Shown piece by piece: positions 23,387 through 28,986 of a DNA stretch of 64,000 nt; position 1 is the stretch's first letter; every line of letters begins with the position of its first letter. The notes under the pieces are model-generated. The model searched no databases, had not been told where the DNA came from, and saw only the letters and a program-made list of their open reading frames with translations. A program made the translations under genes and the position numbers. This DNA is from Naegleria gruberi (lineage: Eukaryota), in NCBI GenBank assembly GCA_000004985.1, contig GG738897.1; one strand, written 5' to 3'.

Positions 23387-26298
23387 TTACAATTCCAGAG
23401 ATTTACCTGTTGATTTCTCCCATTGTTTGTATTGTTTAGTTTTTTGTAATCTGGAGAAAGTATCCGAAATATTCATGAATAATTCTGGCCAAAGTAAGTC
23501 AGTAAGAACTTTGACAGTCACAATAGTTGACACTTCACTCAAAATTGTGTCAATATTCTTGGACATGGCATCAAAACCTCCTTCTTCTTCACTCGATTGA
23601 ATGTAAGTGCTATAACTTGGGAAGATTAACTTGTAGAACTTTTTCTTACAATCAGATGATAAGTTAATTTCATATTCTGAATAATTTCTAATAAAATCTC
23701 GTTCAATTTCTCTCAAATCCTCGACGGTAACGAGTGCATTGTAATTGGTATAGTTGGAAGAGATTGTTCTAACCTTTTCCCAAATGAGAATGTTTTCTGA
23801 GGCAAATTCCTTCTCTGCAAAATTTTTGAGTAAACCATAGAAATATCCATCTGAGATCATTAGGTATTCCAATTCGTTTTCTTGATTTTTACGAAAGGCA
23901 ACTTTCTTTTTGGTAACTTGGGCTGCCTTGGAGTTGAAATCCTCTCCCACAGTTGTTCCATTGAGTTTGGCTCCAGAAATGAAATATCCTGTAGATTCTG
24001 GATTAATTACTGACATGTTACAGTTTCTCAAATTGGTATTGATGAATTTAGTGCCTGTAATTAAACACCTTGAAAATATACATTCAGCCATCGAGGAGTT
24101 ACTGAAATTGGCATTGGATAAAGCAGTATTTGTAAAATCGCTTTGATTCAGAATCGTATTGGAAAAGTTTGATGATGATAAATCCATATTTGAAAAGTTG
24201 AATTGTTTCATTGAGCAACCAGATAAGTCAACTCCAAAGAGAGTTTTGGCACTTCTGAGGAATTCTTCATTGACCTTGGCTCTGTTCATTTTGGCATTCG
24301 AAAGTACACAACCAGTTGACTCCGATGCAATATTGGTCAAGTCGCAACCTTTCAAGTTGGTATTTGTGAAATTAGTATTATCAAATAGTGCTCCTGAAAG
24401 ATTGGCTCCTCCCAAGGAACCACCTGTGAGATTGGCAGAGGTAAAGTTGGTATATCTCAAATCACACAAGGTTAAATTGGCATGTGCAAGATTTGCCTTC
24501 TCAAAGGTACAACCTCTAAGATTGCAACCACTAAAGTTAACCTCTGATAAATTCATTCCACTAAAATCAGAGTCTGTTATTTGGATCTTTCTGATATCCA
24601 AATCTTTGAGTGAGACAAGTTTCAAATCAATGTTTGAAAGTTTCACCTCCAAGTTTTCTCTTCTATGATATTCTATGATATTCTTCAGTTCGTAGTGTTT
24701 GATTCTGCTCTTCTTCTTTTCAATCTCAATACCAAACTTGGTGATACTTTCAGTGAGCAAATCGTTGGATTCTAATTGAGATTTGAGTTTTTCCATGTTG
24801 AAACTTGTGGCTACATCAATCAATAATCTTGCAATGTTTGGATTGACTGATATTTTGCCAAATCTAAGCCAATGGAGAATGAGTAAGAATAATTCAACAT
24901 CACAATCAATAAAGTGTTCCTCATCAAAATCTGTAACTTCTTTGAACATTGAAGCCAATGAGGATGTTGGTTCATATTCTGTATTCAACAATGTTGAAAG
25001 AGCTACATTGATAATCTCACCACCAACATCTAATTTTACACATTGTGAGAATTCTTCTCTTGATGACATGAGAACAATATTTGATATTTTGCCCTCCAAT
25101 TCTCTTGATTGAGATGATAAATATTCCAACTTGGATTCCAACTGTTTGATTGACTGATCAAAAACAACTGCCTTTGTTTGACACGTTGATTCTGATTCAT
25201 TGATTTTCTTCTTGAAATATACATCCACTTCCTCAAGATATGAACTGCATTTGCTTTCCATGTGGTTTTTAAAGAATCCTCTCAGTACATAATTTTCACA
25301 TTTCGAACAACGAACCAACAATCCCTCAATCTGTCTCTTTGTAATATCTGAAATATCTGAAAGATTTTCTCCCAAAATTTCATCCCTCTCACAAATATTA
25401 CACTTCTCCATACATTTTAAACATTCAGAACAGAACATATTTCCACAATTGTTATGAGTTTTGGCTTCCAAATCCAAAACTTGTTTACACGATTGACATT
25501 TCAAATCATTAGAAATGTTGCTCAATTGTGAAACAAACACAAAAGGAGATCCACTGTCTTCACTTGAAGATGACAAAGTAAGAGAATCTCTCATTGAAAT
25601 TCTTTCCTTTACGAAATCTTTCTGCATGAGTGAGTCAACCAGAACAGGAGGTGGTGAATCCCCTCCTATTGTATTTCTAAACATTCTTCTTTGAACCACT
25701 AATATTTAACATCATTAGTTTCGAATAATATAGAACCATGAAAAACACAAAAACAATCATTAGAATTGATATCATCATTTCTTGATTATAATCACTTACC
25801 TTCCTCAAAATCTTCCTTGTCATCTTCCAAACTAATAGGTGAAGATGTATTCGAATGTGTATTTGAACTACTCTTGCCATTCACTTCCATAATACTTTTT
25901 CTAAAATTCTCCTGTTGACTATTCATCACAGCAACTCGTGGAGAAATTGATTTTTCACTATTCGATGAAGTTGATGACAATGACGAAGGCGAAGGAGGAG
26001 TAAATGTTGTCATTCGATGTTTCGCATTATTATTATTCGAAACATTATTTCCAACACTTCCAGTCGTTGCCAATGATGATGCACCCGAGGATGATGAAGA
26101 TGAAGATGATGAATCTAATGTTTGTGTTGTTGTTGCACTAATTGTAGAAGAATTTGAAGAATTTAGATTATTGTTGAATACGACAGCTGTTCTTCCTCTT
26201 CTAACTCTCACAATAGGACGAGTGGGTGAATCTGATGCAGTTGATGGGGAGTTTGTATGGTTGATGGTGCTAGGGGAAGGTGGTGTATTCTTGTCCAT
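23387..26298 (-). CDS. Multidomain signalling protein: S/T-rich N-terminus, Cys-rich zinc finger, coiled coil, KCTD-type BTB/T1 domain, pentapeptide-repeat β-helix and C-terminal RGS domain; exons 26298..25800 and 25698..23387
   Basis: Exon 1 (ORF 25792..26310; first ATG at 26296-26298) ends …EDDKEDFEEG|gtaagt. The acceptor aatattag joins to exon 2 (track ORF 23387..25699, whose M is actually Val from g+tg).

- Zn finger: CQSCKQVLDLEAKTHNNCGNMFCSECLKCMEKCNICERDE.
- BTB/T1: VKLDVGGEIINVALSTLLN…
- Pentapeptide repeats: ANLAHANLTLCDLRYTNFTSANLTGGSLGGANLSGALFDNTNFTNTNLKGCDLTN…
- RGS: FYGLLKNFAEKEFASENILIWEKV … EINLSS … FDAMSKNID, which matches the RGS F-x-x-FL-x-x-E-x-S-EN-x-x-FW core. Confidence 0.7.
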
Positions 26299-26949: not shown

Positions 26950-28986
26950 ATGAGGTTTTCGTATTTTGTTTCGAATTACTGTTTCTTTTACTTTCTAATA
27001 ATTTTATTGTTTGTGGGTTATTCGAAAGGATACGCCATTTTTCATGATGGAGTGGCTGGTTACTCGAATAGCCAAACAACTGTTCGGAATCTAGACGAAT
27101 CTGTTTCTAATAGTTTTGCTTTGGATCAACTAGAGTATCCTTCCGATAATGATATTGCCTACTTTCCAGCACTCTCTCAGCCCTATTCAGTTCTCTATTT
27201 TCCATTAGATAATACCAACAATGATTTATGTCAACTCAACAAGTCGTCATCTTCTCTTATTCGAAACTTGAATAATGTATGTATGGAATATTTTTGTACA
27301 TGCACTCTGGATAGTAGAGTTTGTAATAATCTGACAAGATCATTACTTTGGGATGACACATTCAGGGATTCGTATTTTTCAATGGTCAACTATTGCATGC
27401 ATTGTAATGGAGAGAATTCTAAAGATTTTAGGACAGAAATTTCCAAATCTAATGGACAGTGCAGTGGGAAATTTCCAAGTTATTCTCAAATTCAACAATC
27501 TTTAATTGGACATTGTAATATGGAGCTATCAGATAGTGAAATTTATTCGATAGTTGCTAATAATCAGTCAAGTGTAAATAATTTGAATATTGGAATTCTG
27601 GATTGGAGGTATTACAAACCAAATCAATATTACTCAAAGAAATATGTAAATAATATGACGATTTCTGATAAGGACAATACCCTTCACTTATTCGAAACTC
27701 TATTCCAAAATCGAAATGAAAATCCAATCCTGTGTTGGTGCAAAAACGAATTATATGGAGGATTTGCCTACAAGTGTGCTGATGCCTACTATAACTTTTT
27801 AGTAAGATTCAAATATATAGGAACTCCTTGGTGGTTCATGTTCTTTTTCACATGCTACTTGATTACAATGACAATTTACAATACAATTCCACTCGTACAT
27901 GCAAAGAATGCTTCTATTAAGAAGAAGATTGAACAGAGGAAATCCAGAGAGGCCAACACTATAAGAATGTATCTAACTATTTATCTGGAAGAATTATTTC
28001 TCACCGATTTGAGACCTTCCATTTTACTATTAATTTATATGGAAAGTTCATTTTTCTTTATTGAAAATATGATTTGTTTCTTGTGGAATTATTCATTCAT
28101 GCATGGTAGCTTGAAGAATATTCAATTGTGGGGCTGCTTTAGAGCTTTGGCAATCTACGCTCTTGGATATGGATTCTCTACATTGATGGTTCAATGGAGT
28201 CATATTGTTGATCTAATCAAATCAAATCAGAGTAAGAAGAAATTGTCCAAGTATAATCTCATTCTGCTCATTTCCATTTATATTTTCAATGCATTTCTGA
28301 TAATAATTGCCATAGTCTTGTGTTCAATTCTCAAGACGAGCGTTTACTTATTTGCTTTAGCTGCTGTTGCCATGATATTGGTTCCAACAATTTTGATAGT
28401 TTCCTTCACAACATATGGAATTGTAATTTATAGACGATTGAAAAGTTACAAGAATGTGAATATTTCACAAATGAGATTTTTCAAGTTTATTCTCGTATTT
28501 AACACTGCCTTATTCTTTGGATTTGTATTGGCCATTATTTTCGTGCCAACCTTTATTTCTACATGGGATATTTTTGGAATGTTTGTTGGTGTATTCAAGA
28601 ATTTCGCCATTGATTCGGCAGGATTATTGGCGACCTACATAATTACCTATATTCTGATCAATGAGAATGAATTCACCAAATGTTATGGAATTAAGGCGTC
28701 TCGTATTCTCATTTGTTCAAACCTTCCTGAATCCAATCCTTCAGTAGTTTCGTCTGCCTTACCTTCTCCTTCTTCTGCCAGAGATAGAGCTCTCTCATCA
28801 ACCTCAACAGCCAATAATCCATCACTGGTAAAACCAGTTTCAACAAATCAATTGGACAATGATGATGAACTGAAGAGAAGCAATACTGTGAGTTCCCTAC
28901 AGACAACAACCACTGCAACCTCCTCATCACCAATGGTCACAACACCAACTGTCTACATTTTGGACGATTCAAAGAATAATATTTGA
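26950..28986 (+). CDS. Cysteine-rich-ectodomain seven-transmembrane receptor-like protein (GPCR-like) with S/T-rich cytoplasmic tail
   Basis: The track start at 26935 is a TTG; the first ATG is at 26950 (MRFSYFVSNYCFFYFLIILLFVGYS, signal-peptide-like). A ~270-aa N-terminal domain carries ≥13 Cys (CQL, CMEYFCTCTLDSRVCNN, CMHCNG, CSGK, CNME, CWCK, CAD). Seven hydrophobic helices follow (WWFMFFFTCYLITMTIY … FGMFVGVFKNFAIDSAGLLATYIITYILI), then an S/T-rich tail. Confidence 0.6.
   Translation: MRFSYFVSNYCFFYFLIILLFVGYSKGYAIFHDGVAGYSNSQTTVRNLDESVSNSFALDQLEYPSDNDIAYFPALSQPYSVLYFPLDNTNNDLCQLNKSSSSLIRNLNNVCMEYFCTCTLDSRVCNNLTRSLLWDDTFRDSYFSMVNYCMHCNGENSKDFRTEISKSNGQCSGKFPSYSQIQQSLIGHCNMELSDSEIYSIVANNQSSVNNLNIGILDWRYYKPNQYYSKKYVNNMTISDKDNTLHLFETLFQNRNENPILCWCKNELYGGFAYKCADAYYNFLVRFKYIGTPWWFMFFFTCYLITMTIYNTIPLVHAKNASIKKKIEQRKSREANTIRMYLTIYLEELFLTDLRPSILLLIYMESSFFFIENMICFLWNYSFMHGSLKNIQLWGCFRALAIYALGYGFSTLMVQWSHIVDLIKSNQSKKKLSKYNLILLISIYIFNAFLIIIAIVLCSILKTSVYLFALAAVAMILVPTILIVSFTTYGIVIYRRLKSYKNVNISQMRFFKFILVFNTALFFGFVLAIIFVPTFISTWDIFGMFVGVFKNFAIDSAGLLATYIITYILINENEFTKCYGIKASRILICSNLPESNPSVVSSALPSPSSARDRALSSTSTANNPSLVKPVSTNQLDNDDELKRSNTVSSLQTTTTATSSSPMVTTPTVYILDDSKNNI

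What the first reader, a model, noticed from the sequence alone, without database searches (positions are those of the whole stretch)
23387..28986. Head-to-head RGS-domain gene and Cys-rich 7TM receptor gene sharing a 650-bp promoter: a candidate receptor/RGS module
The RGS fusion gene (-, ATG 26298) and a signal-peptide/Cys-rich-ectodomain/7-TM/S-T-rich-tail gene (+, ATG 26950) are divergently transcribed from one short intergenic region. A GPCR-like receptor and a regulator of G-protein signalling are functional partners in heterotrimeric G-protein pathways. Divergent co-regulated placement of such a pair is the eukaryotic analogue of an operon and is worth testing.

The ectodomain has ≥13 cysteines, not the canonical 10-Cys Frizzled CRD spacing as far as I can judge. 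It could belong to a frizzled/smoothened-like, GABA-B-like or novel family.
Basis: inference. Interest (0 to 1): 0.7.

Follow-up and report, generated by a model that had tools for sequence, protein, structure and literature searches.

The report
Orphan GPCR-fold receptor beside RGS gene
Two real Naegleria gruberi genes, a seven-helix receptor of an undescribed amoeba-specific family and a multi-domain protein with a probable RGS domain, sit head to head, but nothing found here shows that they work together.

Summary
The window is Naegleria gruberi. Both genes are real and divergent, with 651 bp between their ATGs.

**RGS gene (-).** It encodes RING/TRAF-like zinc fingers, a KCTD9-like BTB domain, pentapeptide repeats and a probable RGS domain. 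The RGS match is below the Pfam cutoff, but the residues aligned to the Gα-contact positions are kept.

**The receptor/RGS module is not supported.**
- All three N. lovaniensis co-orthologues and five other family loci (118.6 kb) lack any RGS, BTB or zinc-finger neighbour.
- No orthologue of the RGS gene was found.
- N. gruberi has 229 RGS proteins in a compact genome, so about one such pair is expected by chance.

Co-expression could not be tested.

The parts
26950..28986 (+). CDS of the 7TM receptor-like protein (678 aa plus stop), NAEGRDRAFT_72461. The public model covers only aa 236-678.
   Evidence: ORF. 100% match to P0001 over aa 236-678. The upstream part is conserved in relatives.
26950..27024 (+). 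Signal-peptide-like N-terminus (aa 1-25, MRFSYFVSNYCFFYFLIILLFVGYS).
   Evidence: Hydrophobic segment 3-25. Two of the three aligned homologues also start with a hydrophobic leader. No signal-peptide predictor was available.
27025..27789 (+). Cys-rich, mostly helical ectodomain (aa 26-280) with 12 Cys and 4 N-x-S/T sequons.
   Evidence: All 12 Cys are invariant in the 4-sequence alignment. Ten are kept across the 51-sequence family. pLDDT is mostly above 90. No Pfam match.
27784..28656 (+). Seven-TM domain. Helices are at aa 279-330, 337-378, 396-425, 434-461, 465-500, 509-536 and 544-569.
28663..28983 (+). Juxtamembrane helices (aa 572-588) and a disordered S/T-rich cytoplasmic tail (aa 589-678, 36% S/T).
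26299..26949 (.). 651-bp spacer between the two start codons. It contains 4 TTCGAA sites.
   Evidence: Coordinates. TTCGAA counts. Promoter function was not tested.
25800..26298 (-). Exon 1 of the RGS fusion gene (NAEGRDRAFT_59210), an S/T/N-rich low-complexity N-terminus.
   Evidence: 172-codon ORF. In-frame splice. Identical to the public model.
25699..25799 (-). Intron 1, 101 nt, GTAAGT...TAG.
23387..25698 (-). Exon 2: zinc fingers, coiled coil, BTB, pentapeptide repeats and RGS-like domain. It ends at stop 23387-23389 unless a further intron is spliced.
25256..25504 (-). RING-like plus TRAF-type zinc-finger region.
   Evidence: Weak phmmer matches to RNF125 and TRAF6 RING/ZnF (E 0.04-0.06). 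Cys/His pattern read from the sequence. No Pfam hit.
24770..25039 (-). KCTD-type BTB (T1) domain.
   Evidence: Pfam BTB_2, 27.1 bits against cutoff 21.4. The best PDB match is the KCTD9 BTB domain, E 4e-5.
23930..24592 (-). Pentapeptide-repeat region.
   Evidence: Pfam Pentapeptide 125 bits, Pentapeptide_4 91 bits.
23405..23878 (-). Probable RGS domain.
   Evidence: Pfam RGS E 6.8e-4, 20.5 bits against cutoff 23.9. Four of the six best PDB matches are RGS domains. The ASEN, EINL and DTFSR motifs align with RGS SEEN, EVNL/EVNI and DSFPR.
22542..23248 (-). Possible third exon (public model), or a separate 251-aa gene that starts at ATG 23297. It is an orphan sequence.
   Evidence: The public 1165-aa model joins it through a 158-nt GTAAAT..AAG intron at 23249..23406. 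No Pfam, PDB or metagenome relative.

Best explanation
Two functionally independent neighbouring genes of Naegleria gruberi lie head to head by chance in a compact genome.

**Gene 1 (NAEGRDRAFT_72461).** It is a member of an unannotated heterolobosean multigene family of cell-surface receptors. Shown here: the predicted fold, the N-out/C-in topology and the conservation of the ectodomain cysteines. Inferred: a disulfide-rich ectodomain binds a ligand, a GPCR-fold seven-helix bundle transmits the signal, and the S/T-rich tail is available for phosphorylation. The downstream transducer, a G protein or something else, is unknown.

**Gene 2 (NAEGRDRAFT_59210).** It is a cytosolic multi-domain protein with RING/TRAF-like zinc fingers, a coiled coil, a KCTD9-like BTB domain, pentapeptide repeats and a probable RGS domain. 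Shown here: the domain matches. Inferred: the RGS domain binds activated Gα and accelerates GTP hydrolysis. Its BTB and zinc-finger parts suggest oligomerisation and a link to ubiquitin ligases.
For: **Organism and gene models**
-.

**Receptor**
- The AF2 model has pLDDT 82.3 and seven helices.
- The top 50 Foldseek hits are all GPCRs.
- K+R counts are 20 inside and 3 outside.
- The profile search found 73 family representatives. Every named one is Naegleria or Willaertia.

**RGS protein**
- Domain matches.

**No linkage**
- The window gene is sister to three N. lovaniensis co-orthologues plus N. fowleri.
- All three N. lovaniensis loci have ±10 kb of flank, and none has an RGS, BTB or zinc-finger neighbour.
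- Five more family loci give the same result.
- tblastn over 118.6 kb confirms this.
- None of the 51 family members scanned carries an RGS domain.

**Base rate**
- N. gruberi has 229 RGS proteins (PMC3971589).
- 4 of 25 junctions in the window are divergent.
- The other genes in the window are unrelated: importin-beta, BCS1, START, kinase, Dcp1 and aldehyde dehydrogenase.
Against: - Co-expression could not be examined.
- No orthologue of the RGS fusion gene was found in other species. Synteny was therefore tested only from the receptor side. A young, N. gruberi-specific functional pairing cannot be excluded.
- The spacer and the 5' parts of both genes hold the densest TTCGAA cluster in the window. 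This could be a shared cis element.
- In Naegleria, 7TM and RGS functions are often combined in one protein (28 7TM-RGS proteins in N. fowleri, PMC9283941), so a pairing in trans is biologically conceivable.
Confidence: 0.8

Rival explanations
1. The pair is a genuine split receptor/RGS module. The two genes are co-transcribed from a bidirectional promoter. The soluble RGS protein is recruited to the 7TM protein and acts as its GAP arm. This would be a two-gene equivalent of the fused 7TM-RGS proteins of Naegleria and plants, acting on self-activating Gα subunits.
For: - Head-to-head geometry with a 651-bp spacer.
- TTCGAA cluster over the spacer.
- Naegleria has many fused 7TM-RGS proteins and some self-activating Gα subunits (PMC9283941).
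- The RGS residues aligned to the Gα-contact positions are kept.
Against: - No RGS neighbour at any of eight loci of the receptor family, including all three N. lovaniensis co-orthologues.
- No family member is fused to RGS.
- With 229 RGS genes, chance is a sufficient explanation (PMC3971589).
- TTCGAA clusters also occur elsewhere in the window and inside coding sequence.
Confidence: 0.07
2. The 7TM protein is not a signalling receptor. It would be a GPCR-fold membrane protein with another role, such as adhesion, trafficking or transport, that does not couple to G proteins. The adjacent RGS gene is then irrelevant to it.
For: - No Pfam GPCR family matches, and the class A motifs (DRY, NPxxY, CWxP) were not seen by eye.
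- Two relatives give weak THH1/TOM1/TOM3 hits, E 4e-4 and 0.024.
- AF2 may favour a GPCR-like packing for any seven-helix bundle.
Against: - The protein has a large, conserved, disulfide-rich extracellular domain and an S/T-rich tail, as expected of a surface receptor.
Confidence: 0.2
3. The C-terminal 'RGS' region of the fusion protein is a degenerate RGS-like helical domain without GAP activity. It would serve as a scaffold in a KCTD9-like ubiquitin-ligase adaptor.
For: - The Pfam score is below the gathering cutoff.
- PDB matches are individually insignificant, E 0.08-0.8.
- Some RGS domains are known to have lost GAP activity (PMC3971589).
Against: Residues aligned to RGS4 E87/N88, N128 and D163/R167 are retained (alignments; the residue roles are from my knowledge of the RGS4-Gαi1 structure).
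Confidence: 0.25

Closest known systems
G-protein-coupled receptors (solved class A, B1, F and T structures)
   Same: - Seven-helix bundle with N-out/C-in topology.
- Extracellular ligand-binding-type domain and an S/T-rich tail.
   Different: - No hit to any Pfam GPCR family.
- A family profile finds nothing in the PDB by sequence.
- No DRY, NPxxY or CWxP motif. ECL2 is only about 7 residues, so a TM3-ECL2 disulfide is unlikely.
- G-protein coupling is unknown.
Fused 7TM-RGS proteins (Arabidopsis AtRGS1; 28 in N. fowleri, PMC9283941)
   Same: They combine a seven-TM part and an RGS part in a lineage with self-activating Gα subunits.
   Different: - Here the two parts are separate genes on opposite strands.
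- The RGS protein is soluble with an unrelated architecture.
- None of the 51 relatives of the 7TM gene carries RGS.
Human KCTD9 (BTB plus pentapeptide repeats; PDB 5bxh; PMC6019787, PMC9658877)
   Same: A KCTD-type BTB domain followed by pentapeptide repeats. KCTD9 BTB is the best PDB match (E 4e-5).
   Different: The Naegleria protein adds an N-terminal low-complexity region, RING/TRAF-like zinc fingers, a coiled coil and a C-terminal RGS-like domain.
Frizzled/Smoothened (class F) receptors
   Same: Cys-rich, largely helical ectodomain with ten family-conserved cysteines in front of a 7TM domain. Smoothened appears among the Foldseek hits (rank 32).
   Different: No Pfam Fz or Frizzled match at any threshold tried. 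The cysteine spacing (17, 5, 33, 3, 19, 18, 73, 2, 12) is not the CRD pattern as I recall it.
THH1/TOM1/TOM3 seven-TM proteins (PF06454)
   Same: Two family members give weak hits, E 4e-4 and 0.024.
   Different: The hits are below the Pfam cutoff. They are absent for the window protein and for 49 of the 51 members. TOM1-type proteins lack a large Cys-rich ectodomain (my recollection).

Membership tests
GPCR superfamily (fold level) | Seven TM helices with an extracellular N-terminus and a cytoplasmic C-terminus | tested here: met
   AF2 helices. Hydropathy cores and K+R counts of 20 inside and 3 outside.
GPCR superfamily (fold level) | Helix packing superimposable on solved GPCRs | tested here: met
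   [not shown]
Pfam GPCR families (7tm_1, 7tm_2, 7tm_3, Frizzled, Dicty_CAR) | Profile match above the gathering score | tested here: not met
   No hit for the window protein at E up to 1, or for its 7TM region at E up to 10. No hit among 51 family members at E up to 0.01.
GPCR (function) | Ligand-dependent nucleotide exchange on a Gα subunit | not testable with these tools
   Needs biochemistry.
Frizzled/Smoothened (class F) | Fz cysteine-rich domain (PF01392) and Frizzled 7TM domain (PF01534) | tested here: not met
   No Pfam hit. The cysteine spacing differs.
RGS domain (PF00615) | Profile match above the gathering score | tested here: not met
   20.5 bits against a cutoff of 23.9. E 6.8e-4, covering profile positions 11-97 of 117.
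RGS domain (PF00615) | Conserved Gα-contact residues (RGS4 E87/N88, N128, D163/R167) | tested here: met
   The alignments to RGS5, RGS17 and CG5036 show ASEN, EINL and DTFSR at those positions. Residue numbering is from memory of the RGS4-Gαi1 structure.
RGS domain (PF00615) | Nine-helix RGS fold and GAP activity | not tested
   Both structure-prediction jobs went to the receptor. GAP activity needs an assay.
KCTD9-like proteins | KCTD-type BTB domain followed by pentapeptide repeats | tested here: met
   BTB_2 27.1 bits against cutoff 21.4, and Pentapeptide 125 bits. KCTD9 BTB is the best PDB match.
7TM-RGS fusion receptors | 7TM and RGS domains in one polypeptide | tested here: not met
   They are separate genes on opposite strands. 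No RGS domain in 51 relatives.
Conserved divergent gene pair (functional module) | The head-to-head arrangement is kept in related genomes | tested here: not met
   Eight loci were examined, including all three N. lovaniensis co-orthologues. None has an RGS, BTB or zinc-finger neighbour.
Conserved divergent gene pair (functional module) | Correlated expression of the two genes | not testable with these tools
   No expression data are available. No paper mentions either gene.

The most novel reading that the evidence does not exclude
In N. gruberi the soluble RING/BTB/pentapeptide/RGS protein could be the dedicated partner in trans of the adjacent orphan GPCR-fold receptor. This would make a recently assembled two-gene version of the 7TM-RGS receptor-GAPs, coupling ligand sensing to the deactivation, and perhaps the ubiquitination, of self-activating Gα subunits.
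Probability: 0.06. Interest if true: 0.6.

Novelty: new variant of a known kind. Interest (0 to 1): 0.25.

Why it matters
As a "receptor/RGS operon analogue" the finding does not hold up, so its main claim matters little. Two by-products are modestly useful.

1. **An unannotated receptor family.**
   - The family has a GPCR fold and a Cys-rich ectodomain, and is restricted to Heterolobosea.
   - In N. fowleri only one conventional GPCR candidate was recognised against 13 Gα subunits (PMC9283941).
   - Families like this one are therefore candidates for the missing upstream receptors, including in that pathogen.
   - The public N. gruberi model omits the signal peptide and most of the ectodomain and should be corrected.

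2. **An undescribed RGS architecture.** RING/TRAF zinc fingers, a KCTD9-like BTB domain, pentapeptide repeats and RGS occur together. This hints at a link between Gα recognition and ubiquitin-ligase adaptors.

Tried and rejected
- **AF2 on the 4-sequence alignment.** It gave pLDDT 40 and was unusable. It was redone with 51 sequences.
- **Metagenome scans.** Scans for the RGS protein and for the 251-aa downstream ORF found nothing.
- **Profile of the receptor family against PDB sequences.** Nothing was found.
- **afdb50 fold library.** It was not available.
- **Exact-sequence look-ups of N. gruberi paralogues and of the gene itself.** None was on record: P0018, P0086, P0001 and N. fowleri P0004.
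- **Frizzled, GABA-B-like and secretin-like family membership.** Rejected for lack of any Pfam hit.
- **Literature search for either gene identifier.** Nothing was found.
- **The ORF at 49504..50145.** It weakly resembles the short-chain dehydrogenase gene in the N. lovaniensis locus L008. I judged this a common-family match, not synteny.
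Full report
**Origin and observation**

The window is Naegleria gruberi. The + strand ORF is 100% identical over aa 236-678 to the N. gruberi protein XP_002672476 (NAEGRDRAFT_72461). The window is AT-rich (about 33% GC) and gene-dense, with 26 ORFs of at least 200 aa in 64 kb.

- **The + gene.** It is an uninterrupted ORF at 26950..28986 (678 aa), and 26950 is its first ATG.
- **The - gene.** It starts at ATG 26298. Its 499-nt first exon is joined in frame to the 770-codon ORF that ends at 23387, through a 101-nt GTAAGT..TAG intron at 25699..25799. 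The public model NAEGRDRAFT_59210 has the same start and the same junction.
- **Spacing.** The two ATGs are 651 bp apart.

**The 7TM gene**

Pfam finds nothing in this protein. Homologues in the first search were only from Naegleria.

A profile search of 1.84 billion representatives found 73 relatives, 22 of them below 1e-30. Every relative that carries a name is from N. gruberi, N. lovaniensis, N. fowleri or Willaertia magna. The rest are unnamed metagenome or Logan contigs.

The evidence for a cell-surface receptor with a GPCR-like fold is as follows.
- With a 51-sequence alignment, AlphaFold2 gave a confident model (pLDDT 82.3, pTM 0.79). It has seven long helices between residues 279 and 569, juxtamembrane helices after TM7, and a disordered tail.
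- The top 50 Foldseek hits were also all GPCRs, with class B1 first, but the E-values were weak.
- Loop charges fit an N-out/C-in topology: K+R is 20 inside and 3 outside.
- The mature ectodomain has 12 cysteines and 4 N-glycosylation sequons. All 12 cysteines are invariant among the four closest sequences, and ten are kept across the family.
- The tail is 36% S/T.

By sequence the family belongs to no known GPCR family.
- None of 51 members hits a Pfam GPCR family. Two give weak THH1/TOM1/TOM3 hits.
- A family profile finds nothing among PDB sequences.
- I saw no class A signature motifs.
- One N. lovaniensis paralogue carries an automatic UniProt "GPCR family 2 profile" label.

The public N. 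gruberi model starts at M236. It therefore omits the signal peptide and most of the ectodomain.

**The RGS gene**

The 936-aa two-exon product has the following parts.
- **N-terminus.** S/T/N-rich and of low complexity.
- **Zinc-finger region.** RING-like plus TRAF-type. The phmmer matches to RNF125 and TRAF6 are weak (E about 0.05), and there is no Pfam hit.
- **Coiled coil.**
- **BTB domain.** KCTD-type, with Pfam BTB_2 above its cutoff. The best PDB match is KCTD9 (E 4e-5).
- **Pentapeptide repeats.** Strong Pfam match (125 bits).
- **C-terminal region.** It matches Pfam RGS at E 6.8e-4, but at 20.5 bits it is below the 23.9-bit cutoff.

Four of the six best PDB matches of that C-terminal region are RGS domains: CG5036, RGS5, RGS17 (two entries of the same protein) and EhRGS-RhoGEF. 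The alignments place ASEN, EINL and DTFSR opposite the RGS motifs SEEN, EVNL/EVNI and DSFPR. From my knowledge of the RGS4-Gαi1 complex, these motifs hold the main Gα-contact residues. I therefore call it a probable, divergent RGS domain. Its fold and activity were not tested.

BTB plus pentapeptide repeats is the architecture of human KCTD9 (PMC6019787, PMC9658877).

The 3' end is unresolved.
- The public 1165-aa model removes a further 158-nt GTAAAT..AAG intron at 23249..23406. It then continues into the 251-codon ORF 22542..23297.
- That ORF also has its own ATG in an A-rich context. Tandem spacers of about 90 nt also occur next door.
- The ORF has no detectable relatives.

**Is the pair a module?**

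*Synteny.*
- A neighbour-joining tree places the window gene as sister to a clade of three N. lovaniensis genes plus one N. fowleri gene.
- I examined all three N. lovaniensis loci with ±10 kb of flank (L001, L003, L008).
- I also examined two more N. lovaniensis paralogues, one Willaertia paralogue and two short environmental contigs.
- No neighbouring gene has an RGS Pfam hit.
- tblastn with the RGS, BTB and zinc-finger segments found nothing in 118.6 kb, even at E up to 10 (L008 was not yet in the set).
- No window ORF other than the receptor is convincingly shared with any of the eight loci.
- So there is no conserved synteny.

*The RGS gene's own relatives.*
- No orthologue or close paralogue of the RGS fusion was found. 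These searches were limited by a candidate cap.
- No member of the 7TM family is fused to RGS.

*Base rate.*
- N. gruberi has 229 RGS-domain proteins (PMC3971589).
- The genome has about 15,700 genes (my recollection of the genome paper). In the window, 4 of 25 junctions are divergent.
- A given gene therefore has roughly a 0.5-0.7% chance of an RGS gene as its divergent partner.
- If the genome holds on the order of 100 7TM receptor-like genes (my assumption, not counted here), about one such pair is expected by chance.

*Context.* The other genes in the window are unrelated housekeeping or signalling genes.

*Not testable.* Co-expression could not be examined, and no paper mentions either gene.

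**What keeps the module idea alive, weakly**

Naegleria often fuses 7TM and RGS domains: N. fowleri has 28 such proteins. It also has some self-activating Gα subunits and only one recognised cAR-like GPCR (PMC9283941).

The spacer and the 5' parts of both genes hold the densest TTCGAA cluster in the window. There are 12 sites in 2.5 kb, four of them in the spacer. The window as a whole has 39 sites against 16.7 in shuffles. Similar clusters occur elsewhere and inside coding sequence, so I treat this as an unexplained aside.

**Verdict**

The gene calls are right and improve on the public annotation. The functional pairing is unsupported and is most simply explained by chance.

The receptor family is a new lineage-specific variant of the GPCR-fold receptor theme. 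The RGS protein has an undescribed but unsurprising domain combination, given that RGS architectures are described as lineage-specific and susceptible to domain rearrangement (PMC3971589). Interest is low to moderate.

Noticed in passing
window 25251..27750; also 39835..42290 and 46265..48396: The palindrome TTCGAA occurs 39 times in the window against 16.7±4.2 in dinucleotide shuffles, and it is clustered. Twelve sites lie over the divergent pair, four of them in the spacer. Seven lie around a second divergent pair (41543/41891), and nine lie in 46.2-48.4 kb. The 12-mer GTTTCGAATAAT recurs at 25720, 47259, 47972 and 48104. The sites fall in different reading frames.
   Followed up: partly
window 26950..27654: The public model of NAEGRDRAFT_72461 (443 aa) starts at M236. 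It omits the signal peptide and most of the conserved Cys-rich ectodomain, which is clearly coding by conservation in 50 relatives.
   Followed up: yes
window 22542..23406 (-): The public model NAEGRDRAFT_59210 splices out the RGS gene's stop codon (158-nt GTAAAT..AAG intron) and fuses an orphan 251-codon ORF to its C-terminus. That ORF also has its own ATG 89 nt after the stop. It is unresolved whether this is one gene or two.
   Followed up: partly
window 25256..25504 (-): By my reading of the sequence, the RING-like finger of the RGS fusion has Asn where the RING consensus has His (CGNMFCSEC against CGHxFCxxC). It may be a degenerate RING.
   Followed up: no
window 37264..39447 (-), 39594..41543 (-), 41891..43210 (+): Two of these three neighbouring genes have F-box or F-box-like domains (37264..39447 and 41891..43210). 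The third has no Pfam hit and lies head to head with the 41891 gene across only 348 bp.
   Followed up: no
L003 10001..11856 (N. lovaniensis C9374_006900, P0009): This co-orthologue carries UniProt's automatic label 'G-protein coupled receptors family 2 profile 2 domain-containing protein'. Pfam 7tm_2 does not match it, even at E up to 10.
   Followed up: partly
window 15079..15999 (+) and 2822..5122 (+): Other signalling genes lie in the window: a cyclic-nucleotide-binding-domain protein and a protein kinase. Neither is adjacent to the pair.
   Followed up: no
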